From NCBI GenBank assembly GCA_043228905.1, contig JBHGNT010000022.1:1984001-2048000 (forward strand): DNA of 64,000 nucleotides, written 5' to 3'. The first letter of the stretch is position 1. Every line of letters starts with the position of its first letter. Of the stretch, positions 4,538 to 52,450 are shown one piece after another. The translations under genes and the position numbers were made by a program. The notes below the pieces were generated by a model, which ran no database searches, had not been told where the DNA came from, and worked only from the letters and a program-made list of their open reading frames with translations. The stretch is from Azolla caroliniana (Eukaryota; Plantae; Polypodiophyta).

Positions 4538-4823
4538 TGTCATAGCTAGACTCGAACCCATAACCTTTTGTTACACGGGTCGAGACTTTACCATTAGGTT
4601 ATGAATTGTAATTTGAAGGATATTATTTTCATTTAGGTTTTATTGGGAAATTGATGTATATTCCAGATTTCTCTAGAACATTCTAGAAACTTCAGGAGTA
4701 TTCCTGAAGACACTATAAAAGGAGGCGCAAGGCATTAGTTCGAACCAAATCGGTTCAACGCCAGTCTTAAGCCTTCTAACTACTGTTGTATATCTTCCTT
4801 CATATAATACATATATCTTTCGC

Positions 4824-10285: not shown

Positions 10286-10575
10286 TGATGCGAAAGATAT
10301 ATGTATTATATGACGGAAGATATACAACAGTAGTTAGAAGGCTTAAGACTGGCGTTGAACCGATTTGGTTCGAACTAATGCCTTGCGCCTCCTTTTATAG
10401 TGTCTTCAGGAATACTCCTGAAGTTTCTAGAATGTTCCAGAGAAATCTGGAATATACATTAATTTCCCAATAAAACCTAAATGAAAATAATATCCTTCAA
10501 ATTACAATTCATACCCTAATGGTAAAGTCTCGACCCGTGTAACAAAAGGTTATGGGTTCGAGTCTAGTTATGACA
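9511..10575 (-). mobile_element. Inverted 5' end of a copy-B-type element (LTR 10115-10575, PBS, gag N-terminus)
   Basis: Reverse complement of 4538-5610 with few substitutions; GAT microhomology at the 9511-9513 junction. Confidence 0.93.
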
Positions 10576-13500: not shown

Positions 13501-14454
13501 AATTTTCACATTGGAGATCGGGTGTGGATGCTACAACGACACATCAAGACTACTCGCCCATGTGAGAAGTTGGATTATTGGCGATTAGGTCCTTTCCGTA
13601 TTATCAGAAAGATTAATGATGTCGCTTTTCGTCTCGATCTACCATCTCAACTTCGGATACATCTGGTGTTTCATAGTTCTCTCCTCGAACCCTATCATGA
13701 GAGCACCATCCCAGGACGTATTATACAACCTCCACCCCCGATCAAGCTTGAAGATGGACCAGAGTACGAGGTTGCCACCATCCTTGATTCCAAGATTGTT
13801 CGCAACAAGCTCTACTATCTAGTCCATTGGCTAGGCTATAGTCCCAACGAACGTACTTGGGAACCGATCGAGAATGTGACCAATGCTCGTGGGCTTCTTG
13901 AAGACTTCCATCGTCAATATCCACACAAACCGGGTCCTCCATCCAAAACGACTCGTGACACTCATCGTTTTAAAAGGGGGATAGTGTCATGATATGGCAA
14001 GACTCGAACCCATAACCTTAGGTTATATGGGTCGAGCTCTTGACCATTATATCATCTATTGTAATACGTAGGATATTATTTTCATTTATATTTTATTATA
14101 GGAAATTAATGTATATTCTAGATTTCTCTGGAACATTCTAGAAGCTTTAGGATTACTCTTGAGAACACTATAAAAGGAGGCACTAGGCATTATGTTGAAC
14201 CAAATTGGTTCAACGCCAGTCTTTAGCCTCATAGCCCTTTTGTACTTACTCTTCTTATAATATATAATATGTTATCATCATCTCTCTCTCTCTCTCTCTC
14301 GTCCTCGCTATCTCTCTCTCTCCTCTTCTCTCTTCCTCTCTCGGGAGTCTTACGCAGTTCCTTACTCTTAGTACTAATAGTACTTCCCTTCTCTAGTACT
14401 AATTCTCTCTCTGTTTAATACTAATTCTCTCTCTGTTTAGTACTATTCCTGACA
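10576..14454 (+). mobile_element. Tcn1-like copy C, 5'-truncated and decayed, with chromodomain, PPT and 3' LTR (13985-14454)
   Basis: gag remnant with stops; pol fragments 11218-13992; chromodomain YEVATILDSK...YLVHWLGY...TWEP; PPT AAAAGGGGGATAG; 783-bp deletion at GGAAGCACC (13106-13114). Confidence 0.93.
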
Positions 14455-23305: not shown

Positions 23306-23360
23306 TGGTCTAATGGTCAAGAGCTCGACCCATATAACCTAAGGTCATGGGTTCGAGTCT
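23306..23360 (+). promoter_or_regulatory. tRNA-like Pol III type-2 promoter module (A box TGGTCTAATGG, B box GGTTCGAGTC), antisense to the LTR
   Basis: 45 nt from the A-box T to the G of GTTC, as in tRNA T8 to G53, with AGGTC at the variable-loop position; equivalents occur in other LTRs. Confidence 0.65.
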
Positions 23361-28103: not shown

Positions 28104-28280
28104 GGAATGAAAGAAAAGAGGAATAAAAGATTAGTAGGAAATGAGAGAGACAGAAGGTAGGAAAATTGGTTCAAACTGTCATGAACAGTACTGAGACAGA
28201 GAAGGAATTAGTACTAAACGAAGGATTAGTACTATGAGAGGTGTGGAACTTCTTTGAGAGAAGGAAGAAGTGAGCGAGAC

Positions 28281-28321
<41 letters not shown>

Positions 28322-28998
28322 TGATAAGAAAGATATTTATTATATGAAGAGAATATACAACGGTGGCTAAAAGGCTTAAGACTGGCGTTGAACCAATTTG
28401 GTTCAACATAATGCCTAGTGCCCTCTTTTATAGTGTTTTCAGGAGTAATCCTGAAGCTTCTAGAATGTTCCAGAGAAATCTGGAATATACACTAATTTCC
28501 TATAATAAAATGTAAATGAAAATAATATCCTACGTATTACAATAGATGGTCTAATGGTCAAGAGCTCGACCCATATAACCTAAGGTCATGGGTTCGAGTC
28601 TTGCCATATCATGACAGGAACTCGAGATGTTGTGAGCGACATGAGGGCATGAAGACAAAAATAGATCAAGGAGACAAAGATGAGGCGAAATGAGAATATT
28701 AGATTGATGTATGAATGACTGGTGTTGCATCCCCTTTGAAACGGACCAAGGAGGTTACAAGTATTTATACAGTGAGTTGAAGTACATGCATTAGAATATT
28801 CTTTAGAATATTTTGAAGAATATTCTAGAACCCTCTAGAACCTCCTAGTTTAGAACTTTTTAAAAACTCCTAGAATGTGAATAGATAATCTATGAAAATA
28901 TACATAGCACGATTATGCACTTGGATGTGTTGGTTATAATATAACATTTGACTATAATACAAGAGGTTCAGAGTTCAAATCTTGACATAATTGTGACA

Positions 28999-31959: not shown

Positions 31960-32514
31960 TTACAAATGAAGGGTTAGGTCTAAGTAAGGAGGGGAGAAAT
32001 GGTGTTCATCTTGCTGAAGAGAATTTGTGATGAATCTTCTATGATCATGTTCATGATTGTGAAATGATTGCATAACGCCATTGCCATATTGGGATGGATG
32101 ATCTGATTGACCAAATCGGGCAGAAATCATCGGTTTGGGAACAAAAGAATGAGGTTTGATACCCACAATATTGCTCGAGAACCTTTGTTGATCGTTATAA
32201 CTAATCGTGTCTTCATTGTAATTAATTTTTTGATCAATCATAAGCCCAATATCGCCCTGCCTGATATGATTCCTAAGATTGTTGATATTGTTGCACTTCT
32301 TCGCTGCAGATCTCTCTCTTTTGTGGGCATTTTGATGTCCACCTAAAGCTTGAGAGCTATGGAACTTCCTTGAGCAGAAAAAACAGGGGAAAACTCTTAT
32401 GGGCTCATGATCATTCATACTACTGTCACTATTGTCATTGCCGCTGCTGTTGGAGCTTTGATGGGGATGCAGGATTGGAGCATTAACGTTATTCAAACAA
32501 CTTGTTTCTGACAT
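31960..32514 (-). CDS. Single-finger plant C2H2 zinc-finger protein (QALGGH, ZFP/GIS-like) with C-terminal EAR repression motif
   Basis: Intronless 184-aa ORF: [27 protein letters not shown] and terminal LDLTLHL; (TA)n/TATA region about 110-135 bp upstream. Confidence 0.93.
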
Positions 32515-35329
32515 ATTACAAATTACAAAGCTTTTTTGAATGATTAGAAGAAAAAGAACAAGAAGAAAGAAAGAAAGAAGTCTAATTAGGGGGGTAAACT
32601 CTACTAGTATGAACTATAGAAATATGTATATATATATATATACATATATCGATTGGATTGGATTTGTAAGAAGATATTGATTTGAAGCCCTTGTGTTGGA
32701 GTGATAGATAATATAAGTGTGGTTGAGAAGGATTCGAACCCTTGATGAGTCAAGATTCAAGACAATGACTTGAGATGTAAGGAGGAAATGAAGACACCAA
32801 CCAAGATGTTTATATTGGCATCGTGAAATATGTCATGCACACATACTCCTCCCCACATGTTAAGTGTGTGTGGAACTGTTTACTTTGTCTTCACCAGGAC
32901 TTTGACAAAACTAACTCGAACTCTCAAGTGGTTCCCAGGAAATTGAAATGTGTGTAAGGAAATTGAAATATGTGTGTGTGTGTTGCTATATCCAATCGAT
33001 GATGTTCAAACTGTATAACCATGATGATGGTCAATCTGTCTCACCAACTTGTTCATACTGGCCCTCGACAACGCTTCAGATAACAACAAAAACATGTGAG
33101 AAAAGTGACTTGCTCCGCACACCAGGTCTTTTATCCCACAATGACGTTGGATATATATATATAAACCAACATTAGGAAACACCCCACATGTCGTTTTTGA
33201 CACTTTGGTGGTGGAATTAGTTGGATATCATTGAAATAACTAGAACTTCATTAGGTGGTGTTTTAGAATAACAATTTTAGATCACAAATTATTTGTAAAA
33301 GTAGTTTTTTCATCTAGCTTCCTCGATCAAGAACATAGTACTACTTGCACACGAGGATACTAAAGGAAAACTAAGGATTTTTGTGTTGGAATAGGTAAAA
33401 TGTGTCCATTAGGTTGCTAAGCACAACTCTAGATGATTCCATGAATGAAAAGTTATTGACGAAAAGGATCTAATGCAAGTCCGTGCAAAAAGCAACATCG
33501 TGGACACTTACTGTTTCATGGAATCAAACTAAATGATTTTTTTGCATAGCCACAAATTTGATAGCTCAGTGGTTGCTTTCCTATGATAATTGCATGACAA
33601 TCCACATTGGGGCACAACTCTACAATTATAGGAAATACTGAACATCATGCCTACCTACTTGATAATTATCGTCTTGTTTAAACTCCCATCTTGAAAAACA
33701 TTTTTCTATACAAATCTATCATTGTTGTCTAAACCTATTATTGTATCTATAAATCATATAATGCGGAAATTTTGGAACAACATATTTATGAATACATGAT
33801 GATCTTACCTTTAATAATGGAATCATGTAATACTAGACACACTTTTTCAATATATAAGAATATAGGTAGGGATGTTTAGGAAAGTTGTTGGCGTTATTGT
33901 CTCTATCACCTTTTGATATTACTGCTAGATTTTGTATGTTTTCCAATTTTTGCTTTTAGCTTACAATAACTTTCACCTCATAAACGTCATTCATAATAAC
34001 GATGAAAACACAGAATTGTATGAATCCAATATACTTGTGTTTCAGTACAACATTATTATTTAATTTCCATTTGAAACAATTTCTACTCCATGTGTTCTCG
34101 AGAATATGTCTTTTAGATTGCTATCACATTGTTCAAAATGCGAAATGGTTACAAATGTGTATAGCCTACTCTTATCCATTCAGACTTTGAAATGTAGAAT
34201 TTGAAAGCTCGGAAACAAGTTATGTTTGAAAATGTCCAAGCCACTTAAAAGCTTTTATGAATTTCAAAGTATGATTGGTTTGCTAAAAGCTTATGAGAGA
34301 ATGGACCTACCATTATTTAGAACATTCTTTCTCATCTTGTTCATATTGAGTTTGCAAGTCAAGTTTCCAATATGATCATGTACTATTAAATGTTACTTTT
34401 AGTAGAAGAAGAAGATGTCTGAATGTTGTCTTTTTAACTTAAAGATATCAAACCCAACTTATTCTTATGTAAGGAAAATTCAAAGTTGAGCTTGAATTCA
34501 ATACAAATATACAAAAAGTCAAAATTTAGGGACTTAGGTGACACATCTGACGAAGCACTTGATAGACTTCCATTGAAATGCAAATTCTAGAATCCATGTT
34601 CAAGGACTTCAATCGAATTATTATCGAGATTTAGTTGTGCAACAAGAAGAAATAAAGAAAGAAGATTCACAGCAAATAATTTCCCTCTTCAATGTGAACG
34701 CAAGAGCAATTAACAAACTAGAATACCAGGTCATCAATCCCAAGTAAACTTAGTTTCCTGACATTAGACAAACAAGTCAAGTTCTTTCTAGAATAAACAT
34801 GATGGTTTGTAGCCATGCTTCTTTCAAAACCCCTAATAATTATTGTTTCCAATTGGCTACTTGAAGATGCATCTTACAAATGTCAAATTATGATTAGAGA
34901 AAAGGAGGCATTAGCATAACATGTATCGAGAAGAACTAAAAGCATTTACCTAGAATCCAATGAAAGTGCTGTAAAAATTTGCGGCTAATAAAGTCTAGAT
35001 TGTAGATACACATATATCTCTGTTGTATTAGTGGGACATTAATTTTAGATAGGAATAACCTTTTGTATCTCATTGTTCCCACACGTGGACTATCACTACT
35101 TGAGCCATCATATATTTACATACTGTTATATTCCCTTTTGTAGGATTTTCAAATATTAATCTTTTGTTTCTACTACACAATGGTAGGCCATCACAACTCT
35201 AATAGACAGATTTTTTTTTGTGATAGACACTAATTTTATGACACAATCATGAGTGTGGTAGTAATGCGGGGATTGCAAACTAGACCAACTTTTTCCCTAT
35301 ATGACTAGTAAATTTATTTCTAGGTCATG

Positions 35330-37860
35330 TTTATAGTCTCTGGGAGGCTGCACCATGTAAAACTGTTCCTCAAGGTCGCCTTGCAGGAAAGTGATCTTCA
35401 CGTCCATCTGGTGTAGCTATTATCCCTTTGCCACTACTACAACGAAAAACACCTGGACGGTCGTTATCTTCACGATTGGCGCGAATGTCTCATCGTAGTC
35501 GATGTTGTATGTTTGCGAGTAGCCCTTGGTCACTAGTTGGGCCTTGTGCCTATTAATGTTGCCATCGACGTTGTATTTCACCTTGAATACCCATTTGCAG
35601 CCGATCCGCTTGATACCTTTGGGGGGATCAACAAGGTCCCACATCTCAGTTTTGGCCAGTGCGTGGATCTCTCCCTCCATGGCCGTTTTCCAATTGGCAT
35701 ATAATGCCACCTCCGCATAGCTCTACGACTTGCGTATCTCGGCCACTTTCGTTATGTACACATAATGATGCACTATGTACTCATTCTATCCATACATGAT
35801 AACAGGGTTCTTGTGACAAGTTGATTAGCGCAACTTCTCGTTGGCAATTTTCATGGCCCTCCTGGCCAAGTCTGACCTCAATTCCGGACGTCCACCTTTA
35901 GTCATGGACCCATCCTATTGGCTCTGATCTGATGTGCCCTCATTGGTGCCATATTCTGACAAATTCTTCTTCTCCTTCTATTTGTGGGTAAGGAATCTCT
36001 ACAACTTTTGTCGCGGGGATTGCATGGCCGAGTCCTCTTCGCTAGCTGGCTTGTCAATGGGCTAGCTGTCTTAGCTCAACTCTTCTGGATTCGGCCCACT
36101 TAGTTGGAATGAAATCGGACTTTCTAGATTTTGATTTCCTCTTCATCCATGATAGTGCCAACTTCATTGGCCTCATCTTTAGGGATCGACAAAGAGTCTT
36201 CAGGGGTTAGAACTAGAAGGGAGTATCCATAGGCTGATTCGTCGAACACGACAATGCGGCTCACTCATACCTATTTGGTTTGGGGGTTGTAGTAGTTGTG
36301 CCCCTTTTACTCGTTCGAGTAGTTAACCAAGATACATTTTTCAGCCTTGGCTTCTAACTTCCTTCACGTTTCCTTCGACACATGCACATATGCTATGCTG
36401 CAAACACCCTCAAGTGTTCCAGGTTTGGCTTGTTTTTGAAGTATAGTTCATGTGGTGAGACTACATTTGCAGATGTCCGATTCTGGAGGTACACGGTCAT
36501 CCTGAACGCTTCGGCCCAGTAGAACTTGGGCATGCTCTTCTCTTCTAGCATCGCCCTAACTGCTACTTCTATGCTCCGATCCTTCCTTTCGGCCATGCCA
36601 TTCTGATCTGGCGTGTATTTGCAGAAGAATTCGCGCTGAATTCCCTTCTTCTGCAGATAGCTTGTGAACTAATCGGAAAAGTACTCCTTTTCGCCATCGG
36701 TCCTGAGGCACTTGATTTTTCTACATGTCTCCCCTTCGGAAAGGCTTTTCATCTTCAAGAAACAAGAGAAGACTTCGCTTTTCCTCTCAATCAAGTATGC
36801 CTAGGTGTGCCAAGCGAAGTCATCAATGAAGGTGATGAAATATCGTCTCCTTCAGATGTTCATGTTCGGTGCCGGTCCCCACACATCCGAGTGGATCAAA
36901 TCGGCTTATTACGGATTCGATTTTGCTCGTTGGGGAAAGGAAGCCGGTGTTGCTTCCCTAGTTGGCAAGCTTCACATACTTGGCCTTTCCAGCCATTGAA
37001 TTTTGGTAGCTGAAAACAACCTGTTTCACCTAAATCTCTTGAAGCATTGGGAAGTTGACATGGTCGATCTGCCTATGCCATAAGTTGAAGTACGAATAAA
37101 CCTTCTTTCCTTTAGCAATCATTGCGGTGTCGACGTCATTGGTCTTTAGGATAAACATCCCCCTTCTATACGCCCTTGTGGAATAATCCAGCCTTCCTCC
37201 TCAATGAAGATGAGTGACTTGACCTGCATCCCCTAGTCGACGATCTGTTTGACAGACACAAGATTCTTCGTAATCGTCGGGACGTGCAAGATGTTCCTCA
37301 TAATTCCTTTCTAGTCGGCGTGGCTCAGAGGGAGGTCTTCAATGTGCTTGATGGGGTGAGGGTATCGTCACTGGTTTCGACAACCCCTAGCTATTTCGGG
37401 TTCTCCATAGTCGAGAAACACTCCCTGTGGTTTGTCATGTGGTTCAATGCGCCAAAATCCACGTAGCACACCTCATTCGGTTTCGAGGTGCTCATCCCCA
37501 TCCAATTGGCTTTGTGCTTAATTACGAAGGTAGGGCCCATTTTGGCTCACCTTGAGGCTTCAATATACTACGATCTTTGACACCTTTCGGCGTCGGCTTT
37601 GCTTGATTCGCATTTGTCCGAATGAGCACACTTTCTCCAACACTCACATTCTTTGTGGTCCTTTCGACCACAATACAAGTAGTCTGTGGCTTTCCCTTGT
37701 TGGCTCCGGCGGCACCCTGACTCCCCCTGGTTCTTGAGGGTTCATTAATGTCGACACTTCTTGTGTGCCTCTGGTTTTGCTCCTCTCGTTCGCCAACATT
37801 GTGTGCTAATCCGCCTTTATGTACAATATCTTGCTATCAGTCGCGCTCGTTGCATTGTTG
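35330..37860 (-). mobile_element. Decayed internal fragment of a Ty1/copia element, related to 52451-64000
   Basis: Zinc-knuckle and protease remnants, integrase (AERKDRSIE..FYWAEA), RT start (IGCKWVFKVKY..DYDETFAP); no LTRs seen. Confidence 0.88.
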
Positions 37861-38510
37861 TTAAAAAACACGTACTTTATAGATACAATATAGTTTAGAA
37901 TACCCACACATATTCTAAGTGTATTCTACCTTTTGGAACTGTCATTTTTTGTAAGCCTAAATTTGTAAATAATTTAAAATTTGATTTTCTAGGGCTTTTT
38001 TTAGTAGTGAAAAAGAAAATAATTGGGGGTTTTTGTTACGAGTAACGAGTGTTTGCATTTTGTAGATACTAGGTTTTTACGTACGTCTTTGGAAGCAGCC
38101 TGTAAGAAGCTCAAACTCTAAAGCAAGTAGCATTTTTGTTCAAACTTCATTTCAAAGGTGATTTCATTGTGATTCCGATTTGTAATAGAGATTAGTTGTT
38201 GGTTTAATCTTGTATTTTATAAATTTATAGTAAGAGTTAGACTATTCAATTGTTAGCATATATATCTATTCCATGTATAATCAAGCAAGGGAAGAGGGAT
38301 AGGGAATCGTAAAAGAGGATGAAAATTGATTGTTCTTGATAACTAGAGACTTAAAAAATGCAGCTCAGGAATCAATATACATAGTTATTAAATCAGTTGT
38401 TTCAATATGAACAGGAGAACCCAAGTGCTCCTAAATGATATCTAATTGTTCAGAAGTTGTGAGATTCATGGAAATGGAAGTATGTTGGAATTTGATCCAA
38501 TGAAACATGG

Positions 38511-39768
38511 CAAGTACATTAGTTGGGTTTAGAGTCTCGCCTCTATCCAAGTCCCTTGTAGAATTTTTTCACACATGCAGACCATGCCAATCAGAATCAC
38601 AACGGTGCTTCCCTCACCTAGAACTTCAAGTAGCTCTTACTTAGGTGGTAGAGTAAAAGTGGACCTAGTCATGGAGAGTGTAGTTTCAGGTGCAAAGGCC
38701 CAAGTTTTAAACATTACATATATTTTTCAATTTAGAGATGAAGCTCACATTTCCAAGTACATGCCTAGGCAACAAATTGGACAAGATTGTTTGCATTGTT
38801 GTTTTCCTGGGGTTCTTGATGTATGGAATGATTTTTTTTATGCTATGATTGTGTGGAGTGCCATGAAGGAAAATACGCCATGATTCCAAACACAATAACT
38901 TGTTTGTTGACAACATCAAGAGTAGGGTTTTTCGATAGATGTTAAATTCGGATAATGCGTGAGAGAGTGGCTTTGGTACAATGGCAATTTCCAGAGCATT
39001 GCCCATAGTGTTAAAGTGGTGAGAAGCTAAACACTACCTAATAAAGGTTTGCTTACATGGTTTCATATTGCCTATCTTTCTAAAAGCACTTCCCATTTGT
39101 TAACAATATTTTTACCCCCACTAAGCATCTCCTCTGAAGTACTCATCAAGGAGGTACATGTATTGTATTTGCATTGGTCATTGATATGGAATGTTTTGTA
39201 CATGATGAAATCCTTAATAAATGTAATCCTCATTCGCTACCTACAATTGTTCCAGGCATTGGCTATGTGCCAGTACTATTCTTTTCATCTTAATTAACAA
39301 AGTTTTTAAATTGCAGCAAATATTTCTTCTTATTTCACATAGTGAGTGACATAAAACTAAGCACATGCAAGCTGGCATTTAGAATATCTTATAGAATAGG
39401 GATGAGTTCACGTGTAAACCCTTTCCTCATGTAAACCCTAAAATAGAAATCATGTTTGTTATTTTGTAAGATTTCTTTTGAAAGCAGTAATAACATAAAT
39501 GACAATTCATCTCTAGGTATCTACAAAACAAGTGTATGGTGAAGGTAAAATGGGGGATATTAAATATAAATGGAGAGCTTGACTATAGCAAAAAAGAAGT
39601 AGGGAATAACGAACCAAAGAATGATGGATTCACAAGTACATTAGTTGGGTTCAAAGTCTTACCTCTATCCAGGTCCCTTATGGAAATTTTTCACACATGT
39701 AGACCATGCCCATCAATCACAAAGGTGCTTCCCTCACCTTGAACTTCAAGTAGCTCTTACTTAGGTGG
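38511..39768. repeat. Diverged ~137-bp direct repeat pair (38511-38648 and 39633-39768)
   Basis: CAAGTACATTAGTTGGGT...GAACTTCAAGTAGCTCTTACTTAGGTGG present in both copies. Confidence 0.8.
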
Positions 39769-41057
39769 CATATGCAATATATTCTACTAATAACTTGGCC
39801 TTTATGCTCATAGTACCTTCACATAACTTGCCATTATTTGGACATAGCTATTGAGAAGAAGGGAAGAGTTCAGCTAGGGCAAGGAGCTAAATCACCAAAA
39901 CACTTAGTACACATTGATTCATCAAGTAGAACATTGTGGAGACTACTAGCACCCAAAGGGCATGAGCTACATTCTCTTCTCATTCATTGTGGTATGGCCC
40001 ACTTGTCTTATATGGTGCTTCTTCCTTTCCACTATGTCATTCTCTTGTGGCACGAATCTACCTGTGAATCGGCATTAGATTAGTAGATTCCTATTCTTTA
40101 GAGGAATTTTAGTGGAATGAGAGAACAATCATATGTGTTAACATGGACATAGAAGTGGATAATTTGAGTGCCATAGGCGTGGATAATGGAAAGTGATCAT
40201 TAACTATGTACACATAACTTAGGTGAGGGTAGGTCATTGATATTTACATAAGCGAAGGGTATGTTTACTAATGATAAAAAGGGGACTAATGTGATTGGAT
40301 GGAAGGAATGATAGGTGCATGTAATATCATGATTTGGACAACCAATGAATAGAGAGCCTTTTAGAAAGGCACATCCATTCAAGGGGCCTAGGAAAAGGTA
40401 TAAATATGAGGCTTAGCTACCCTCATAAGGACATTACATCGGAAGGCTATTGCCTTAGACACTGGTGGTGCGGGCTAGGCTTTTGTCTTGATGATCGTGT
40501 TTATTTCTTCCAAGGTATTAATCATCCTAATATCCGGCGGTATGGGACGTCAGTGGTAGGTTGGCTATGTCTAAATCGTAGCTCAAGGGTGGTCGGGTGA
40601 AACGGGTTCTTCTATCCAATCTATTTTCCTTCTTTTACTTTACTTTGGTCGATTGATTAGTAATAAACTCTTAACAGTGGTATCAAAGCATTTACTAACA
40701 TTTTTTTGTTGTTGTTTGCATGTGAGCAATGGGGATCTAACAAGGCTCGTCATGCTCTTGTCAGGATCAAAGCATCATTCTTAACCCAGTATTCTTCTTT
40801 CTCAATCTCTCTTTTCTTTTCTATGATGCTTTCTTATTGGTCATATGAAAGTCGTATTACATTTTCTTTTTTTTTCTACCATGATACGATGTTAATCTAC
40901 TTACGCATCTGGTCGAGCGTGTTTGCACTAATTGCACACGCTCAACTCATGGCTTTTTTGCATATTGCGATGTATCTCCCACTCTCCCTTCTCTTGAGCC
41001 ATCTCTTACGCAAATAATTATTCTTCTGCATCGGGTTGAGTGTGTTTGCCTTAATCG

Positions 41058-41156
41058 CGTCATATATGATTGTTATAATAGTTAAAGGTCTAACATATAG
41101 ACCAAGACGTCTTGGGCTCGAATCCTTGTAAGGCCAAAATGTTTGTCGTCATGACA
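41058..41156 (+). mobile_element. 99-bp mini-element with (C/T)GTCAT...ATGACA ends and tRNA-like core; candidate minimal solo LTR/TRIM
   Basis: AATCG duplicated at 41053-41057 and 41157-41161; removal restores similarity to the neighbouring repeat near 40911-40955; core ends ACGTC-TTGGG-CTCGAATCC. Confidence 0.75.
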
Positions 41157-41201
41157 AATCGCACATGCTCACTTCATGGCCCTTTTGCATATGATGTTGA
41201 G

Positions 41202-41450
41202 TATGCCACTCTTCCCTTTATTGAGCCATCACTTGGCCAAATCTATGGGATGGTGTGGCCTTGACGAGGTGTATGTTGCCTACCTATGCCACTCTACTCT
41301 CTATTGAACCATGACTTGGCCGATTCTATGGGATGGTGTGGCCTTGACGAGGTATATGTTACTTACCTATGCCAAATTACTCTTTATTGAGCCATCACTT
41401 AGCTGATTCTAGGGAGATGTGGTGGACTTGAGGAGGTGCACGTCGACTAC
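41202..41450 (+). repeat. Three 83-bp tandem repeats in the chromovirus 5' leader
   Basis: TATGCCA... starts at 41202, 41285 and 41368. Confidence 0.9.
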
Positions 41451-44400
41451 CTTAGGGTTTCATACGTTAAGGCATGCTTAATGTTCCATACACCTAATTG
41501 ATCATTATTCTAATTAATTTCTAATTACACAAATTTTTGTTTCACTTTTGTATGATTTTCTCATAATTATTGTTTACTCACCCACAATTTACTCTTTTCC
41601 CACCCTTCCTTTTCATGTTTAAAGTATATACGTCCGTTTACCTATGATGTAATGCTCCCGTGTAGACTATTTTTTTGTATGGACTGGGCATCATGCCGCT
41701 TTTTGAACGATTTTTTCCAATGTGTCATCTAGGTTTAACTCATATTATTGAGCGTTAGAACTCAAGTGAAACCACGTGAATTTCCCTATGGATGTTTTAC
41801 TCATAAATTTGAGTACTACATCTTTGCGCACAATACCACCACCATTTGTATCAACTTGTGGCTTATGTCACAATTGAGCAAATTTCAACCATCATAGTGG
41901 GATGTATAGGAGCATACCTCACACCATCCATTTATTTGTTTTTTTTTTACTGTTGTTTTCGTCACTGCTTAACTCTTATGGATAGTGCCTTATTTTATCG
42001 TTTTTATCATAACATTTGCTTGTTACCCGCAAGACTAGAATATTACTTGCGAGTGCACTTGTTTTTTCACACAATACACTTTCTCGACCATATCAATACA
42101 TGTTGGGTTGACATTCTAATATAAGGATAACTAGGAAACTACATTGATGTTAGAACCATGGTTGAGCCTCAGGGAGCTGCCATGATTATTCAAGATAGAG
42201 ATCCGAGAAAGACATCTTAGCTATGTTTTCCCCCATGGTTTTTAAAACACCATAGTGTTACCATAGTTATCGGATCTCGAATCACATCTCATATGTCTAG
42301 AGGGGTAAAAACGTCAAATGATTTCTTGGTAAAGTTCTTCCAATCAAAATTTCAAGCATTCATTTTGCTTGTTTATTTTTTGAACCTCCTTATTTATATT
42401 GCATACCCACAACTTGCATCATGGAACAAGTTTTGAACGTTGTTAGAGCGATCTCTCCAACTGAGACCTCTCAACTCCAATCTACATCTCCCACACAAGC
42501 TAAAATCCCTATTGAGCTTGCTCACTACTTCCTTGAATTTGGCTAAAATGAGGCGGGCCAATATGGCCTTGGAAAAGAAATTCCAAGAATTGACTATTGA
42601 GTCCAGGAAAGAAGGTGAACCTTCTTTTGTAGTAGTCACACCATTCGAGGGAGATAAGAAAGAAAGAATGGAGGAGGCCATTAGCACTTCGCTTGGTCGT
42701 TGGGAGTCTTAGTTTGAGCTCCAACCCAAGCCCGATGCTGTAAAAACTGGTTATGTCGGTCGTGAGTTAGGTGGCCGAGCTGCTGCTTGGTGGCGCGGCC
42801 TAAGGATTGCAAAGAACTTACCCATGACTTGGGAAGGTTTCGTTGATCTTTTTAACAAACTGTTCTTGTAGCCACCTTCTCAAATTGAACAAGTGCAACA
42901 CTTGCTCATGTTGTCGAGTAAGCCGTTTACCTCTCTCGAGGATTATGTGCATCATGCTCGGACCTAGATCCAAAAGTTGAGGCTTACAGGTGAGAAATGG
43001 TTTGTCGCTTGTTTTTTGAATGGTATTCCCATTGGGGATTACCATTGGATTGTCCATGACAAGGACCCCACAACTTTCGAGGAAGCCGTCAACATTGTAC
43101 CTCGGTACCATAGGACTTCCAAGAAAGACCACAATAAACTGAGTTCACCAAAACTCCAAATGTCAAGTTCATTGGGAAACGTAAGCAATCCAATGCCACT
43201 CTTGACCACGACTCCAAGAAACCTAACCTCTTCTGTGCATATTGCGAGAAGTGGGGCCACATAAAGGATACCTATCATCGTCTTGAGGGGATGTCAATGA
43301 ACACCCTCCTCAAGACAAATCTACGAGTCACACAGGTGAGTCTTTTGATGTTATTGAAGTTCATACCAACCACTTAAGTTCATGTGAATGCACTTTTCCT
43401 TCACGTTTACTTGGACCTAATGATTTACTATGAGCAATCGGGTATATCAATGGAACACAAGCACATTTCTTGTTTGATTCCGGTAGTTCTCACAATTTTC
43501 TTAATGATCACTTTGTGCAGCAAATGCAACTCCACATAAACACAAGTGATCATATCTATCAAGTTCACATGGAAAATGGAAGCATTCAATACATTAGTGG
43601 CATTGTTTGTCAACTGTCAATTCAAATAAATACCTATTTGGAGAAGCTTGACTTTCATGTTATGATACTACAATTCGTAGATGTCATTTTAGGATACCAT
43701 TGGTCTTTTAATATAAACCTTTCTTTGTCCATTGATTGGGTTAATCACTCAATCACATTTGAACCTAATAATTGTAAACATTTTATTCAATGTTCCAAAC
43801 TTCCTTCTCGTTCACTTGTGTCTTCTAAATCTTTAAGTGAGTATTCTAGTTCATTAATTTATTCGTGTCTAATTGATCCTGCGCTTCAATTTTATTATTT
43901 TAATATTGAAGCCACAAAATCACTACATTATGAAAAACAATTACTCGACTCTATTTTAGAAGATTTTCAAGACGTGTTTCCTAACGAATTACCACTTACA
44001 TTACCACCAACACGTAATGTGGACCATCAAAGTGAACCCATCCCTAGTGTTGATCCTGTGAGCATTCCACCTTACCGACTTAGTCGATTGGAAGAGGATG
44101 AGATCGCTAAACAACTTGAGTATGGGCCACATTAGGTATATTAAATCAACTTGGGGTGCACCAGTTCTATTAGTTAAGAAGAAGGAAGGTTCACGGCGAA
44201 TGTGTATCAATTATGGCCTTTTGAATAAAATGACAATTAAAAATGCATATCCATTACCTCATGCCGATGATTTGATTGTTTGCATGGGGCCCGATATTTT
44301 ACCAAAATTGACTAACCAACATGTTATCATCAGATTCACATTACTTAGGATGATATTCCTAAAACCACTTTTTGTATGCGTTATGGCCATTATGAGTTTT

Positions 44401-47279
44401 TAATCATGCCTTTCAGGTTGACTAATGCTCCAACCACATTCCAACAAGTGATGAATGGCGTTTTCCAAGATCAACTTGGTGATTTTGTTGTCGTCTTCTT
44501 GGATGATATTTTGATATATAGTCATACCTTGCAAGATCATTTTCAACATGTTTGATTTGTTTTGCAAAAGTTACATGACAACTCTTTCTATGCAAAACAT
44601 TCAAAATGTGGTTTTTTCCAAAAATCTATTGTGTACCTAGGTCATTTAATTACGGAAAATGGCATTGAAATTGAACCTTCTCGTATTGAAAAGGTTAAAC
44701 TTTGGCCCATTCCTTGTAACATTCGTGAACTTCAATCATTCTTAGGATTTGTTGGATTTTTACGAAAATCAATTCGTAATTATTCTAAATTGACTACGCC
44801 ATTAATTGACCTTTGAAAAGATCATCCACATAAGTCTGTCAAACCAAATTCATGGAATGAACAACTTGACAAATCATTTGAGACACTCAAAGAGCATGTG
44901 TGTGAGGCTCCAACTCTTCTTTTATCGGACCCTTCCAAGCCTTTCTCAATTGAAACCGATGCTAGTGATTATGCTATTGGTGCGTTCCTTTATGAAGGCG
45001 GTCACCCTATTGCTTTTGAAAGTAAAAAGCTTGATGCTACTCAATCTCGGTATTCGGTTCAAGATAAGAGTTGTTCACGGTAATACATGCACTGAAAACA
45101 TGGAGGCATTATCTCTATGGAAATCAATTTGTGGTTACAACGGACCATCAATCCTTGAAGTATTTTTGTGACCAGCCAGATCTTGTTGGTTGTAAAGGCC
45201 GTTGGGTTGACCTTATGCAACATTTTGATTTTTCCATACGGTTTTGCAAGGGTTCTATTTACACCATTGCGGATGCTCTTAGTCACATTAAAGAAGTTAA
45301 CATGCTTAAGTTCACAGAAATAAAATCTGATCTTTTAGATCACCTTCGATGGAAATACCTTGATGACAGTTATTTCTTGAAATATTGGACGAAAGCCAAA
45401 TCTGGTTTAGATGCCGTTACTAGCACCCTACCCTCGAAGGCAACCTTTCACACTACAAACGGTTTGCTCTACAATAGTGGAAAGGTATGTGTTCCAGATT
45501 TACGAAACGTAAAATAGTAAATTTTTCACATTGAATGTCATGATACACCATCTGCTGGTCATCCTGGAATACAATGCACACTCGTTCTCATCTCAAGTAC
45601 TTTTTTCTGGCCTAAGATGCGCTTTGACGTGCATAAATACGTGAGTTAATGCTTACAATGTTAGATTAATAAGTCGGAATGACTTAAAGCTGCTAGTCTT
45701 TCACATCCCTTAGATATTCCCAACAACAAATGGGAAAGTATCTCGATGTATTTTATTGTTAGTTTACCTCGTACACAGAGGGGCCATTTTGCGATTTGGG
45801 TTGTCGTTGATCGACTAACAAAATTGGCTTGATTTATTCCTACCAAAACCACGGTAACCGCTCAACAATTGGCTTATCAATTTGTTGATGAGTTATTTCG
45901 CTTTTATGGATTACCGATGGATATTGTTAGTGATCGAGATTCCAAGTTTACTAGTGACTTTTGGACTCAGGTCTTTAAGAAACTAGAAACTACGTTAAGC
46001 ATGAGTTCTACAGATCATCCTCAGTCTGATGGAATAACTGAACGAGCTAATCAAATTATTGAGGACATGCTTCGAGCTTACGTACCAAAAACCCCTTCTA
46101 AGTGGGAGCAATGCCTTCCTATCGTAGAATTTGCCTATAATAGCTCTAAACATACATCCACTAGATATAGTCATTTTATGTTGATGTATGGTTTTCAGCC
46201 ACGTGCCCCAGTTGATGTCACGATTCATCGTGATACATTAGACAGTACACACAATTTTTTGCAAGACATGAACCAAATATTGCATATTGCCAAAGAGAAT
46301 GTCAAGATAGCTCAAGATCATGCTTGATTTTATGCTAATCAGGATAGACGTCCTCGTGCATTTACTATTGGTCAAAAAGATTTTTTGCATGTCCCTACTG
46401 ACTCTACTTCATTGTCTATAGGCAAGTGTGCTAAGTTAGCCCCACAATATTGTGGCCCATTTGAGATCCTTAAGTGGGTTGGGTCATCTGCTTATCACCT
46501 TGCCTTACCCCGTAACATTGGTATTCATCCTGTTTTTCACATAAGTCTTCTAAATCCATTTTTAGGCTCTGGTGATAAAACCATCACAATCCAAGATCTT
46601 GTAACATTAGAGGATTTTTCTTACAAACCTCATGTTCCTGAACAAATTCTTGATTCTCGTACTAAACATTTACGTTCTAAAGAGATTCGGCTATTCAAGA
46701 TCAAATGGATGGATAAACCTATTGATGATACCACATGGGAACGCGAGCATACTCTTAAGGCACAATTTCCTCACTTTATATTGCAAGAGTGCAATCTTTT
46801 GAAGTAGGGGAGTATTTTATGTACACATAACGTTGGTGAGGGTAGGTCACTAATATTTACATTAGTGAAGGGTATGTTCACTAATGTTTAAAAGGGAACT
46901 AATGATTGGATAGAAGGAATGATAGGTGCATGTACTATCATGATTTGGACAACCAATGAATGGATAGCCTTTTAGAAAGGCACATCTATTCAAGGAGCCT
47001 AGGAAAAGGTATAAATATGAGGCTTAGCTACCCTCATAAGGACATTACGTTGAAAGGCTGCTGTCTTAGACACCGGTGGTGCGGGCTAGGCTTTCGTCTC
47101 GATGATCGTGTTTATCTCTTCCAAGGAATTAGTCATCCTAATATCCGGCGGTATGGGACGTCAGTGGTAGGTTGGCTATGTTTAAATCATAGCTCGGGGG
47201 TGGAATGGGTTCTTCTATCCAATCTATTTTCCTTCTTTTACTTTACTTTGGTCTATTGATTAGTAATAGACTCTTACCA

Positions 47280-50242
47280 CAAATTGTAGCTCATCCTGCA
47301 TCTTCCAAAGGTCTTTCTTCATTTCTCCGGTCACGACCATGTACGTAGATGCCCCATTCGGACTGATTTAGACTTGTTTCGCTCCGAGAGTTTTCTTCTT
47401 GTGTGGGCTATCAGGGCTCGAACTATCACTTCCCCATTCCACAACAGTCCGCATTAAAAAACCATTTTTGTTTGGGGCAAGAGCTCTCTCTTGTTCCTTT
47501 TGTGATTCGATGGCACAATTAGGAATTGGATGGTTTCCCCTCCGCTTTGGCTCCGAATCGGTGCAAAAGCCGCTCCGCTATCGAGCACCTTTGGTTCCAT
47601 CCGTGAAGCAGTGAAAAATGGTTGGCCGAGGATCACGGAATGTAAGACCTCATCTTGCACGAAGAAATTTTGGTCAATCTCTACATCTCCGATCTTCACC
47701 ATCACATCCGGACAAGCTGCAAATAGGTCTTACATTGCTTTAGTGGCTGTCCAGATCTTCCATCCATGATTGGTGTTAATATGCCATTTCCCCTTCCGAT
47801 AGAACTGCTTGGACATCAGGTTGATCTCCAATCCATGATCAATCAACGCAACTATGGGCTCTTTGATGTTCCAATCCAGATCGGAGTCTCCATAGTTGCC
47901 CGTGCCTAGTGTGGCTTTGTGTAATGAGAGTTCGGAATCTCATCCTCTACTTCCATATAGTTCATTAGAACACTATTTGCATTCACCCTTGGGGCATTTG
48001 ATTCTTCTGTAGCTTGCGTCTTTCTTTTTACAAGATCCACAAGGAGATCGTGGAATTCGTTCTTTGCTATTCCGAGCAATTCCCGGAGAGAAAACTCCAC
48101 CCGACTATCAAGGATTCTCTCTTCGCACACCTTCTTTAGGTCTATCTATTGTTCGATGTCCGAGGCAAGTTTGAATGCCGGAATCGGTTTCCCTTTTCCT
48201 TTCCCTTCAGAATCCCAGCTCTCCGGTCTCTTCAATGGTCTGGTCACATTATCCGAGCGTCGTCGTTTCTCATCTACACACACCTCATGTAATTGGCGTA
48301 GGGCATATGCACTATTCTTATCTACAGGGCACTCCCATTCTGTAGCTTCTCGGATGACTTCTGTCGTGCTCCAGATTTCATTAGAATCGGTTTTTTCAAA
48401 GATTTCTAGCATTTCTGGCTAGAAAGACAACTTTGCTCTAGATGTCTCTCCCACACGTATTCCCGCGGTTGACGCATACTTGCTTTTTGCCACAATCTCC
48501 TCCGCTAGGACCTTCCTCATGCCGTCTTTTCGGAAGTTCGGTCGAGGTGGCTTCTGAGAGTCCATCGAATGGATCCAATTTCCCTCGTAGTAGATGGGAT
48601 CCCATCGTAGAGCCTCCTTGTGCTCATCGCAATCCTTCCGATCATGTTCGGTGCTATCACACCATATGCATTGACGGTCCATATACTTGGAACTTGTGGG
48701 ACGGTCTTCTGATTTCTTCACCATCACGATTTTCAGATTCTCCATCTCCTTCAGCAACTGCTCCACCGTGGTTGCATCAATTCCCTTCTCGATCATAGTC
48801 TCCCGAGCCCATGGTTGATGGTCTTCGAATCCAGATCTTGGAATTGGAATTGGACCAGGTTCCGAAACCCTTTTCTCTTCATTACCAAGACATTGCCCCC
48901 TCTTTGTGTATCACGCGACGATGTCCGACACATTTTCCCATGTATTGGTGAGGCCACTCTCAATAATCGTATCCTCTAGAAGCACTCCAAGATCTTTCCA
49001 GTCCTAGATGTCCACATCTCATAAGAACATGATCACTTTGATTGGTGCGAGGATAGCTTGATCTCTTACAAACAACCTCCCGAATCGACTTTCGAATGCT
49101 GAAAACACATTGAGGACCTTCAACCCCTTGTCTGATGTTTCCACCCAATCTTCGAATACTCTCTGCGTTGTCTTGGAGGAGTCCTCGATAGCGAAGGTGG
49201 TCTTTAGCGCTTCTTCAAATGCCACCCACGTCAGACTTTGTTGTTGTATCCTGTGGATACTCCCTTGAAGCCCATTCGTAGCCACCCGATTGAAGAATGT
49301 CAATTGCTATCCTTCCGATATTCCGCACCATAGCATCTCCGCCTTGTCATTCCGCAAATAACATGACACATCCTTCATGTTGAATTGCCCGTTCCGTTGC
49401 ACGAGCCACTCTACTACTGCCACAATCTCCAACATCGCACATTGTACTTGTAGCTTCCGCTCGAATGTTGTTAGGCTCTTGTTGATTCTCCATCTCCTTA
49501 CCACCCGTTATCACTTCGGGTTCACCAATTGTGTCGCGCCTTTCAGCATCGGATCGCTGCATGAGTCAGGTGGAAACCATCGAGGTTATGGACTAGAAGG
49601 AGGAAGAATTTGAGGCAAATAGGAATGTGAATAGGTTGTAAGAAAGAGATATTAACCTGTGAATCCCACGAGTGTATTGTAATAGATTTATTAATATTTA
49701 AAACCCTAATAACAAATTAAAATAGATTGGAAAAGAGAGATAGAAAATCGTGAATCACACGAGTATAATCAATTCAATCAATATTTAGAAACCCAAAAAA
49801 GATCGACAACAAACCCTTACAATTTGCTCCCCCGCCCTTATATAGTGATGGGAGAGACTAAGTATATCTTACTACATGCAAACATGATGCTTTTTCTCTA
49901 ACTTGAGTGTTCCTGCACACTAGATGTCTTAGCTTTTTCTATCATACTTTTTTTCTTTTAACTCAAGTATTCATGCACACTAGATGTACATGAATAACTT
50001 TCTTTATCATGCTTATCTAGAATATTTATTATGGATAACTTTTGTGTAATTAGAATCTATACCTTTAATACTCATAATGTGTATAATGGTAAGGCTTGGA
50101 ATTGTTAACATCGAGGTATAGGGTTCAAATCTTGCTATATGCATGGAACATAATTATTTTAGTATTCTCTCCTATTTCTTTATACTTAGTTAATCGGTTA
50201 CTCTACACATATTTTACGTAGTGTACAAAGCACACTACGACA
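47280..50242 (-). mobile_element. Decayed 5' half of a tRNA-Trp-primed gypsy related to 53894-61254 (LTR 49532-50242, PBS, gag-pro, start of pol)
   Basis: Fragmented ORFs match the 708-aa Gag-Pro; PBS TGGTGAACCCGAAGTGA; LTR begins TGTCGTAGTG on the minus strand. Confidence 0.92.
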
Positions 50243-52450
50243 ACACGTCAGATTTTGTCCTCAGTAGTATTTTGTCACAACAAGGCGACGATGAGAAGCT
50301 ACATCTCGTGGCTTTCCACTCGCGCAAATTTGACACCGCCGAAATCAACTACGAGATACATGACAAGGAGCTATTAGAAATAGTGGATTCTTTTGCACAA
50401 TGGAGGCATTTTTAAGAAGGATCTCCTTATTAAGTCACTGTATTCAGTGATCACAAGAATCTTGCCTACTTCCAGAATCCTCACGTATTATATAGACAAC
50501 AAGCTTGGTGGGCCCAGTTCTTCACTCGTTTCGACTTCAAGATTACATATCGTCCAGGCAAGCAACATGGGAAGGTAGATGCATTATCACGATGCTCGTA
50601 TCTAGCTCCTCGTCCTGGTGATCCGGCCTTCGAAAATCAAAAGCAAGTAATCCTAGGTCCGACACGACTTCAAGCAATGTGGGTTTTTGACACTCCATTG
50701 GATTCCCGCATTATTGATACCATACGTGAATATTTGAAGTTAGATATTCTCGCTCAAGCTATTCTAGATCAAATTGATCCCTCTTGGGCATCTTGTTCAC
50801 GGTCACAACAACCAGGTATGTATTATCGACAATTCCAATGTCATGATGGATTACTCTTCTTTAAGAAACTTTTGTATGTTCCCAATGGTTCCTGTCACCT
50901 TCGCATAGTACAAAATTGTCATGACACATACACAATCAGACATTTTGGTAGTACTAAAACGTTGGATTTAGTACAATGATCATTTTGGTGGCCTCATATG
51001 CGAAGATTTGCCAAGGACTATGTTCGAACATGTGATACATGTTGCAAAGCAAAGATGCCTAGACATCATCCATATGGTTTGTTGGAGCCATTATCGATCC
51101 CAAGCAAACCGTGGCAATCTATTTCTCTAGATTTTATCACAAATCTTCCGGATTAAAAAGGCTTTAATGTGATCTTAATAGTGGTAGATCGATATACTAA
51201 GATGGCACATTTCATGCCCTGTAAAAAAGAAACCACTAGCGAAGAAACCACAGGAATTGTTATGCGTGACGTATTTCGGCATCATGGTATTCCCGACAGT
51301 ATCACTAGTGATCGTGGACCTCAGTTCGTCTCTAAATTTTGGAGGCATCTCTTCAAAATGCTCAAGGTCACCTGCAATCTCTCCTCAGGCTATCACCCCC
51401 AAACAGATGGACAAGCAGAATGTACCAATCAAATGCTGGAACAATATCTTCAGTGTTTCCTAAGCTATCAACAAGATGATTGGGCAAATATTCTACACTT
51501 TGTTGAATTTTCTTATAATAATTCTATCCACTCCTCTACTAGGGTTACACCATTCTATGCTTATACAGGCTATCATCCTCGTTGGTGTGTGGTAGAAACT
51601 CTTGAGTTACCCACAAATCTTAGTGCAGAGGATCATTTGGAGCAGTTATGACAAATTCAGGCTGAACTATCTACCCACCTACATCACGCCCAACAAACAC
51701 AGAAGGATTATGCGGATCATCATCGGCTTCCATCCTATTTTGGTATTGGAGAAAGAGTATGGCTATTACGATGGCACATCAAGATTACTCGACCATGTGA
51801 CAAACTGGATTATCAGCGGTTAGGCCCTTTCCGTATTAACGAAAAAATTAATGATGTCATCGTTTGCCTTGATCTACCTCCGCAACTACAGATACATCCG
51901 GTATTTCTAGTTCTCTTCTAGAACCCTATCAAGACATCACTATTCCCAATCGTATTACACCACCTCCACCCCCGATCGAACTTGACGATGGACCTAAGTA
52001 CGACGTTGTTGCCATCCTCGATTCCAAGATTGTTCGCAACAAGCTCTACTATTTGGTCGATTGGGTAGGTTGTAGTCAAAGCGAGCATACTTGGAAACTA
52101 GTAGAGAATGTGGCCAATGCTTGAGCTCTTCTTGAAGACTTCCATCGTCAATATCCAAACAAACCAGGTCCTCAATCAAAGACAACTCGTAACACTCGTC
52201 ATTTAAAAGGGGGGGGATAGTGTCATGATGTGTCTCCAAAAGGATTTGAACCCATAACCTTATGTTACATGGGTTGAACCCTTACCATTCCAGATTCCAG
52301 ATTTCTCTAGAACATTCTAGAAACTTCACGAGTACTCCTGACAATACTATAAATAAAGGCACATGGCATTATTCAGAACCAATTCGGTTCAATGCCAATC
52401 TTAAACCTCCTAGTTATTCTTATATCTTTCTTCATATAATATATATGAAT
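50243..52450 (+). mobile_element. Decayed 3' part of a Tcn1-like element E (RH-IN-chromodomain, PPT, partial LTR 52221-52450)
   Basis: Collinear with the pol of element D, many stops; LTR cut off by a copia LTR at 52451. Confidence 0.92.

What the first reader, a model, noticed from the sequence alone, without database searches (positions are those of the whole stretch)
41053..41161. A 99-bp TSD-flanked mini-element that is little more than the tRNA-like module between TGTCA/TGACA-type ends
Seen: AATCG-[CGTCAT...GTCATGACA]-AATCG. Deleting it restores the host repeat (compare TAATTGCACACGCTC near 40929). Inside are a decayed A box (TGTTATAATAGTTAA), a GGTCTA/TAGACC hairpin, ACGTC and GGGCTCGAATCC, with 36-nt spacing and oriented toward the TGACA end as in the large LTRs. 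Its ends and 5-bp TSD match the Tcn1-like elements. Inference: this is a minimal Pol III-driven LTR (solo LTR of a Helenus-like TRIM) mobilised by the Tcn1-like integrase. It would link tRNA-bearing TRIMs to the U3 tip of autonomous elements.
Basis: partly seen in the sequence, partly recalled or inferred. Interest (0 to 1): 0.78.

Follow-up and report, generated by a model that had tools for sequence, protein, structure and literature searches.

The report
Retrotransposon end scrap, tRNA-type promoter
The 99 bases are the outer tip of the end repeat of a common protein-coding retrotransposon, likely left behind when a larger insertion was deleted; no second such mini-copy was found, but the tip it comes from carries a conserved, backward-facing tRNA-type promoter motif whose function is untested.

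Summary
The insertion is real: 99 bp between two AATCG copies, absent from 39 of 39 other host copies. It is not a mini-element family. It is the U3 tip, in antisense, of the 425-525 bp LTR of a 5.6-6.2 kb gag-pol chromovirus family (257 matching tips). Genome-wide junction searches found no second TSD-flanked 99-bp copy and no two-LTR form. Only the right end is a true LTR end; the left end is an internal LTR position with 2-4 bp microhomology to the family's termini. The family leaves other TSD-flanked deleted or inverted products (276, 404, 1100 bp). Best reading: microhomology deletion remnant of a larger integrase-made insertion (0.68); Helenus-like TRIM 0.03. The A/B boxes have decayed here (12.2 bits; 10 of 128 donor matches score as low). 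The notable feature is the parent module: A and B boxes at tRNA spacing at the U3 tip of several coding, self-priming Tcn1-like families, facing away from their TATA, kept down to about 66% protein identity, with a tRNA-His-type B box in the donor. Function untested; not found in 10 literature searches or in the scan's earlier notes.

The parts
41053..41057 (+). left target-site duplication (AATCG)
   Evidence: single copy in 11 of 11 empty host sites
41058..41063 (+). left junction CGTCAT: one change from the LTR terminus TGTCAT and one change from the internal CATCAT; likely microhomology join
   Evidence: the join is inferred
41058..41156 (-). U3 tip of the donor chromovirus LTR (LTR sense is the minus strand); 5 edits from the nearest of 111 surveyed tips over bases 3-99
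41071..41081 (+). decayed A box (intact donors read TAGTATAATGG or TATTATAATGG)
41087..41103 (+). 6-bp hairpin; not in register with a tRNA anticodon arm and not shared by the sister families
41115..41125 (+). B box GGCTCGAATCC, same spelling as the host tRNA-His T arm
41149..41156 (+). true U3 terminus (integrase end) of the donor LTR
41157..41161 (+). right target-site duplication (AATCG)
40207..47279 (+). host element: decayed chromovirus, LTRs 92.4% identical over aligned columns, tRNA-type PBS; its U3 tip has no A/B module; the 99 bp sits in its leader
23306..23360 (+). intact A/B module (26.5 bits) at the U3 tip of the 3' LTR of a sister-family element with open gag and pol on the minus strand
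28547..28601 (+). same module in the 5' LTR of that element
10512..10565 (+). A/B module at a U3 tip, second sister family (22.6 bits)
4548..4601 (-). A/B module at a U3 tip, second sister family (23.5 bits)
14000..14054 (-). A/B module at a U3 tip (20.4 bits)
52242..52295 (-). A/B module at a U3 tip, third sister family, upstream part deleted (about 16 bits)

Best explanation
The 99 bp is the U3 tip of the LTR of a protein-coding chromovirus family and is likely the dead remnant of a larger integrase-made insertion that later lost its inside by a microhomology deletion. Shown: an insertion with a 5-bp TSD into the host leader; bases 3-99 match the donor U3 tip with the exact terminus; the donor makes 5-bp TSDs; no second copy was found; the promoter boxes have decayed. 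Inferred: the precursor (solo LTR, whole element, or an inverted U3-U3 product) had a left terminus TGTC(G/A); a deletion joined it through TC or TCAT to the internal CATCAT 97 bp from the other end, which kept both TSD copies; a later T>C gave CGTCAT. The remnant has no PBS, PPT or second LTR and would not move again. The tRNA-type A/B module is inherited from the donor LTR, where it faces outward, opposite to the TATA-driven element RNA; in intact LTRs it likely binds TFIIIC/Pol III (untested), most plausibly as a boundary at the LTR's outer edge.
For: All 29 other loci fetched from the BLAST search continue upstream as LTR. 8 of 8 donor elements with both ends resolved (of 12 regions fetched) are 5.6-6.2 kb with exact 5-bp TSDs, PPT, and long ORFs (a 1215-aa pol frame in L111). 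Junction searches: 6 hits for the GTCAT spelling, 5 inside full LTR sequence; 3 and 5 hits for foreign upstream bases among 257 core matches, none but the window TSD-flanked; 0 hits for a longer inverted-tip join. Microhomology at the break is 4 bp with TGTCAT (8 of 447 LTR positions reach 4 or more) and 2 bp with the usual U5 end; 7 of 68 U5 ends read TGTCAT and 1 of 68 starts with C. About a third of tips (33 of 104) lack a U5 end and 5 of 104 are intact solo LTRs with TSD. TSD-flanked shortened products exist: L017 404 bp, L022 1100 bp, L151 276 bp. L276 keeps a 96-bp tip and is deleted into pol at the same place. Illegitimate recombination at repeats is the stated main route to truncated copies (PMC11899658, passages).
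Against: The left base is C, so one extra mutation is needed; an internal CGTCAT allele exists (2 full LTRs), so the left end may hold no terminal bases at all, in which case a blunt break exactly at the TSD is unexplained. The family demonstrably integrates cDNAs with an inverted U3 tip as one end, with an arm as short as 16 bp (L272, exact TSD; L151 and L271, TSD 4 of 5), so the piece could have been inserted as it is. The break lies 12-13 nt upstream of the A box, about where a Pol III start is expected (recalled rule). The junction searches need an exact 25-nt core and together catch an estimated 70% of random flanks; older copies are missed.
Confidence: 0.68

Rival explanations
1. Aberrant cDNA integrated as it is: two plus-strand starts (or one folding back) joined through TCAT gave a 99-bp duplex with a U3 end on both sides, the shortest member of the family's inverted U3-U3 class.
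For: The U3 tip reads TGTCAT and shares 4 bp with the break. L151 is a 276-bp two-tip element with TSD 4 of 5; L272 has a 16-bp inverted tip and exact TSD; L271 likewise, TSD 4 of 5.
Against: Both ends of a 99-bp duplex must be held by one intasome, a hard bend (established DNA stiffness, recalled); the smallest example found is 276 bp; still needs the T>C change; 0 hits for similar short-arm joins.
Confidence: 0.17
2. One-ended integration or break repair: integrase joined the good U3 end, or a cDNA fragment patched a staggered break, and host repair joined the broken end.
For: Explains one exact and one internal end with no terminal bases on the left; L106 shows a 95-bp tip duplicated with flank and filler, a repair-type product.
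Against: The duplication is exactly the family's 5 bp (8 of 8) with no filler; repair joins usually give variable duplications (recalled).
Confidence: 0.07
3. Copy of a Pol III antisense RNA: the 3' LTR module makes an RNA that runs through the U3 tip and the PPT complement to a T4 run; the PPT primer anneals to it and RT copies it to its 5' end, giving a cDNA with exactly these two ends.
For: Left end 12-13 nt upstream of the A box; T4 directly after the PPT complement in donor 3' LTRs; right end exactly where PPT priming starts.
Against: n = 1. No class of such copies among 257 donor or 1822 sister-family tips: of 20 sister hits 4 had foreign upstream DNA, against about 6 expected from the general truncation rate, none with a TSD. 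The usual internal end offers no CA for integrase. The sister family in the window has only T3 there. No RNA evidence.
Confidence: 0.05
4. One reading: solo LTR of a Helenus-like TRIM with a 99-bp Pol III-driven LTR.
For: tRNA-like boxes, near-symmetric ends, 5-bp TSD; a plant Helenus has a 120-bp LTR and 5-bp TSD (PMC10886601).
Against: No second copy, no two-LTR form, no PBS/PPT; 95% identical to the inside of a long LTR; module antisense, whereas the Helenus-1_SMo module is sense (supplement passage); boxes decayed.
Confidence: 0.03

Closest known systems
Truncated LTR remnants and solo LTRs made by illegitimate recombination (PMC11899658, passages; the primary paper it cites, Devos 2002, was not held)
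   Same: TSD kept, LTR-derived, inside lost at short shared sequence, non-mobile
   Different: extreme size (99 of about 450 bp); the left terminal bases are inferred, not plain
Helenus / TRIMp3 (Kojima 2024, PMC10886601; parts 1-4 of 6 of the text, passages, supplement passages)
   Same: tRNA-like A and B boxes inside an LTR without a working cloverleaf; 5-bp TSD in plant and fungal families
   Different: Helenus is a two-LTR non-coding unit of 311-1263 bp with PBS and PPT, module sense in the plant example seen; here the module is antisense at the U3 tip of gag-pol elements with their own TATA, and the 99 bp is a singleton. The paper notes that 'not a few LTRs' in Repbase hold tRNA-like sequence but follows only TRIMs under 1 kb and names no moss family in the supplement text held
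Tcn1-clade chromoviruses of mosses and club-mosses, incl. RLG1 (PMC6317226, PMC2864245, PMC7466625; passages)
   Same: donor and sister families have a chromodomain, a self-priming PBS, PPT, 5-bp TSD, short gag-pol body
   Different: no tRNA-like LTR module appeared in the passages read (0 hits for tRNA in PMC7466625 main text); clade membership was not tested by phylogeny
tDNA heterochromatin barriers (fission yeast cen1 tDNA-Ala, PMC2040200, abstract and outline)
   Same: A/B boxes next to heterochromatin; barrier there is independent of orientation and needs TFIIIC and Pol III
   Different: those are host tRNA genes; here a degenerate module would be carried by the mobile element; binding untested

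Membership tests
Helenus / TRIMp3 | two LTRs around a short internal part | tested here: not met
   single 99 bp; no two-LTR short form among pattern hits
Helenus / TRIMp3 | PBS and PPT | tested here: not met
   none in or beside the 99 bp
Helenus / TRIMp3 | non-coding family below about 1.3 kb with dispersed copies | tested here: not met
   relatives are LTRs of 5.6-6.2 kb coding elements; no second mini-copy
Helenus / TRIMp3 | tRNA-like A and B boxes in the LTR | tested here: met
   met in donors (17.9-23.6 bits, 0 of 200 shuffles), decayed in the 99 bp (10.9 bits, 2 of 200)
Helenus / TRIMp3 | module oriented to transcribe the element | tested here: not met
   antisense to gag-pol, PBS and PPT; sense in Helenus-1_SMo
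Helenus / TRIMp3 | 5-bp TSD | tested here: met
Helenus / TRIMp3 | Pol III transcription | not testable with these tools
   only contigs, no raw RNA reads offered
intact solo LTR | whole LTR with both termini between TSD copies | tested here: not met
   99 of 425-525 bp; intact solo LTRs of the family are 439-492 bp
Tcn1-clade chromovirus (donor family) | chromodomain at the end of pol | tested here: met
   Pfam Chromo in the sister pol; donor pol tail aligns to it by eye, with Y, W, Y aromatic residues (cage positions recalled)
Tcn1-clade chromovirus (donor family) | self-priming PBS instead of a tRNA PBS | tested here: met
   11-nt PBS complement just after the TATA in the sister LTR; same arrangement visible in donor LTRs L014, L021; the L111 copy tested lacks that part
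Tcn1-clade chromovirus (donor family) | RT/RH/INT phylogeny with Tcn1 | not tested
   no named reference sequences were fetched
MITE | terminal inverted repeats and many near-identical copies | tested here: not met
   5-bp inverted match only; singleton
tRNA-derived SINE | tRNA head, body, simple-repeat tail | tested here: not met
   ends at the exact LTR terminus with no tail

The most novel reading that the evidence does not exclude
A lineage of autonomous, self-priming chromoviruses carries its own working tRNA-derived Pol III promoter at the outer tip of each LTR, facing outward: a portable TFIIIC/Pol III barrier that shields the LTR promoter inside the heterochromatin these elements insert into, and at the 3' LTR a source of antisense RNA across the PPT. 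On the boldest sub-reading (about 0.05) the 99 bp is a PPT-primed, integrase-inserted copy of that RNA.
Probability: 0.4. Interest if true: 0.72.

Novelty: new variant of a known kind. Interest (0 to 1): 0.36.

Why it matters
The 99 bp itself is ordinary debris and gives no link between TRIMs and autonomous elements. The module it preserves matters more: Kojima 2024 argues that autonomous partners use Pol II and are unlikely to share LTR sequence with Pol III-driven TRIMs, yet here some 2,000 LTRs of coding elements keep A/B boxes at tRNA spacing in antisense. If TFIIIC binds them, a chromodomain retrotransposon brings its own boundary element into heterochromatin and scatters thousands of Pol III sites over the genome, which is directly testable by ChIP and LTR reporters. 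If not, it is a captured tRNA/SINE relic riding in U3.

Tried and rejected
tRNA gene or known RNA family: ARAGORN 0 genes in the window; Rfam nothing on the 99 bp at E up to 10 over 22900-41400. Conserved RNA fold: the 99 bp z -2.1 (6 of 200), donor -1.3, sister -4.1 as one long hairpin, L196 -0.4; no shared cloverleaf. Fixed part of the host leader: rejected. Origin from the donor lineage with an internal TGTCAT (L043, L047, L048): its diagnostic bases are absent from the 99 bp. Clustering of breaks at the predicted Pol III start: breaks at about -95 to -107 occur in L106, L151, L184/L274 and L276, but the 2 non-window cases caught by the genome-wide junction searches are near my rough expectation of about 1; no excess in the sister family either. 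Expression: the run search, made with the sister LTR rather than the donor, returned only contigs, at most 0.46 of the words, no raw RNA reads; nothing was laid. The TSD check on L276 read the wrong strand and is not used; the BLAST in the same call shows its structure. Earlier scan notes: nothing by sequence or words; place look-ups returned a different, PPT-less family. Literature: 10 searches found only Kojima 2024 on tRNA-like LTRs; subscription papers and Repbase entries are not covered, and supplements other than the one text file of PMC10886601 were not read, so a prior mention of the module is possible.

Full report
Observation. The window holds 99 bp at 41058-41156 between AATCG at 41053-41057 and 41157-41161. 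It lies in the leader of a decayed chromovirus (40207-47279; chromodomain and integrase hits; LTRs 92.4% identical over aligned columns). A search with 441 bp around the site returned 39 other host copies among the 40 scored; in all 39 the left and right flank matches adjoin without the 99 bp (by coordinates), and 11 of 11 loci read at sequence level have a single AATCG. So it is a true insertion with a 5-bp duplication. The A box (41071-41081), the 6-bp hairpin and the B box (41115-41125) are there and face the TGACA end; the boxes are 44 nt apart start to start (33 between), not 36.

What it is a piece of. The 99 bp has many relatives (400 candidates, 40 scored, 94-96% identity). In all 29 other loci fetched the sequence continues upstream as a longer LTR of 425-525 bp where both ends were found. 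Downstream it meets either unique flank or the complement of a polypurine tract, so the TGACA end is the U3 tip and LTR sense is the minus strand. Of 12 regions fetched around pairs of tips, 8 resolved both ends: 5.6-6.2 kb, LTR pairs 96.5-99.1% identical, exact 5-bp TSDs in 8 of 8, PPT, long ORFs, one with a 1215-aa pol frame ending in a chromodomain-like tail. The PBS is complementary to the LTR just after the TATA, the self-priming arrangement that Neumann et al. 2019 give for the Tcn1 clade of mosses and club-mosses (PMC6317226, passages). The host is therefore likely a moss (inference; not identified). The degenerate core occurs 257 times (213 for a stricter pattern).

Is there a family of mini-elements? 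No evidence of one. The left-end spelling GTCAT plus the core gave 6 hits: the window and 5 in full LTR context. Two searches for the core preceded by non-LTR bases gave 3 and 5 hits: the window each time, point or small-indel variants of whole LTRs (L049/L275, L050, L273), another element nested at that point (L184/L274), and a tip deleted into pol (L276). I estimate these two searches together catch about 70% of random flanks, and they need an exact core. A longer inverted-tip join gave 0. In the large sister family (1822 core matches) the equivalent search, about 25% sensitive, gave 20 hits; 4 had foreign upstream DNA, none a TSD at the junction, against about 6 expected from the donor truncation rate (my estimate). 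No two-LTR short unit with PBS and PPT appeared among the first 100 listed positions or the 104 tips surveyed.

The left end. In donors this position reads CATCAT (87 of 104 tips; CGTCAT in 2 and TGTCAT in 2, both sets picked up, so over-counted). The donor's U5 end on this strand is TGTCGT (41 of 68), TGTCGA (11) or TGTCAT (7); the U3 tip in sense is TGTCAT. Microhomology at the break is 4 bp with TGTCAT (8 of 447 positions reach 4 or more) and 2 bp with the usual U5 end. CGTCAT is one change from either the terminus or the internal spelling. The copy carries 5 further edits against its nearest of 111 surveyed tips, whereas the median tip is 1 edit from its neighbour, so one more change is not a strain. 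Reading the G as terminal explains why the break abuts the TSD; reading the C as internal does not.

The family makes such debris. In the survey (automatic classes, approximate: a few 5' LTRs were mis-sorted as 3'; tips within 300 bp of a locus start or failing the motif match were dropped) 33 of 104 tips lack a U5 end and 5 are intact solo LTRs with TSD. TSD-flanked shortened or rearranged products: L017, 404 bp, TSD exact; L022, 1100 bp, TSD exact; L151, 276 bp, two inverted U3 tips, TSD 4 of 5; L272, left end a 16-bp inverted U3 tip, TSD exact; L271, inverted U3 end, TSD 4 of 5. These support deletion after insertion and also show that aberrant cDNAs get integrated, which is the main rival.

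Mechanism. Most likely (0.68) integrase inserted a larger precursor, making the TSD (shown for the family, inferred for this site), and a microhomology deletion then joined the first 2-6 bp to the last 97 bp (inferred). An inverted U3-U3 precursor would be especially prone to this (inference from palindrome instability, recalled). Direct integration of a 99-bp aberrant cDNA (0.17) needs both ends of a very short duplex in one intasome. One-ended integration or repair capture (0.07) does not predict an exact 5 bp. A PPT-primed copy of an antisense Pol III RNA (0.05) fits both ends neatly but has no second example and no CA at the inner end. A Helenus-like TRIM (0.03) fails its defining features.

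The module. With matrices from 14 tRNA isotypes found in G000 (nuclear and probably organellar genes mixed), intact tips score 16.8-27.5 bits against 27.5 for a host tRNA-His, with 0 of 200 shuffles reaching any of 8 such tips; the other strand scores at most 11. Window-wide, all 5 hits of 20 bits or more are U3 tips, against 0.33 per Markov null. Spacing is 43-44 in every family, as in tRNA. The donor's unusual B box is the spelling of the host tRNA-His T arm: 27 of 30 loci fetched for that motif are tRNA-His. In metagenome contigs the module scores at the U3 tip of relatives at 92, 73 and 66% protein identity and is visible by eye in others down to 61%; at 41% it is absent (L204) and at 42% doubtful (L203, 13.4 bits, 2 of 200). 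Against a strong claim of selection: between families the B box is 0.73-1.0 and the A box 0.55-0.82 identical, but the spacer is also 0.52-0.85 (upstream 20 nt 0.20-0.75), so box-specific constraint is modest; no RNA fold is shared; Rfam does not call it. It lies beyond the pol stop codon, which falls in the first 8 bp of the LTR, so coding does not explain its retention. It faces away from the element's TATA, so it cannot make the genomic RNA as proposed for Helenus. In the 99 bp it has decayed to 12.2 bits; 10 of 128 donor matches (overlapping loci counted twice) score as low. I found no expression data. A boundary role is my preferred guess because RLG1-type elements are reported to sit in heterochromatic islands (PMC7466625, passages) and tDNA barriers work in either orientation (PMC2040200, abstract); this is inference only.

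Comparison and novelty. Kojima 2024 (PMC10886601; parts 1-4 of 6, passages and supplement passages) defines Helenus by two LTRs, PBS, PPT and a tRNA-like LTR, lists Selaginella as the only plant, remarks that 'not a few LTRs' in Repbase contain tRNA-like sequence, and follows only TRIMs. Novikova 2010 (PMC2864245, passages) and the other papers read do not mention the module in the passages seen. Ten searches found no description of an antisense A/B module in autonomous chromovirus LTRs; the library lacks most subscription papers. Verdict: the 99 bp is an ordinary remnant; the parent module is a new variant of tRNA-bearing LTRs with untested function. Interest 0.36.

Noticed in passing
L175-L178 (G000:C1, four loci): A repeat in which a diverged sister-family LTR is followed by tandem 240-350 bp units, each with a full A/B module and U3 tip (3-4 copies per locus): the module amplified on its own.
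   Followed up: partly
window 54170-54224 and 60665-60719 (minus strand); 50079-50132 (plus strand): The LTRs of an unrelated gypsy element without a chromodomain hit (53894-61254), and a 78%-identical relative at about the matching place, also show an antisense A/B-like pair at 43-nt spacing in U3 (15.8 and 13.3 bits, within window-wide chance). Possible second lineage with such a module.
   Followed up: no
window 28923-28993: Weak Rfam tRNA match (21.9 bits, E 1.5) near the end of another LTR-like segment that resembles the sister family in part; possibly a further module-bearing family.
   Followed up: partly
window 13985-14685; L003, L179, L180, L182: Recurrent rearrangement in which U3 is joined to an inverted U5 through the self-priming PBS/R palindrome, giving elements with U3 ends on both sides.
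   Followed up: partly
L151 (G000:C5, about 19642914-19643189), L271, L272: TSD-flanked elements with inverted U3 tips as ends, down to a 276-bp MITE-like unit and a 16-bp arm: integrase accepts aberrant cDNAs with two U3 ends.
   Followed up: partly
L272 401-406: U3 and U5 ends joined through four bases that match unprocessed end remnants, like a 2-LTR circle junction, inside an integrated element.
   Followed up: no
L053, L054, L057, L184: Ends of what look like other LTR elements sit 0-15 nt upstream of the A box, reminiscent of Ty3-type targeting, but no more often than the general truncation rate predicts.
   Followed up: partly
G000:C4 19.4-20.6 Mb, C12 9.6-10.0 Mb, C19 4.6-5.0 Mb: Clusters and tandem arrays of the tRNA-His T-arm motif (75 matches; 27 of 30 fetched are tRNA-His genes).
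   Followed up: no
window 40202-40206 and 47280-47284: The host chromovirus has no matching TSD at its own two ends, suggesting a recombined or further rearranged copy.
   Followed up: no
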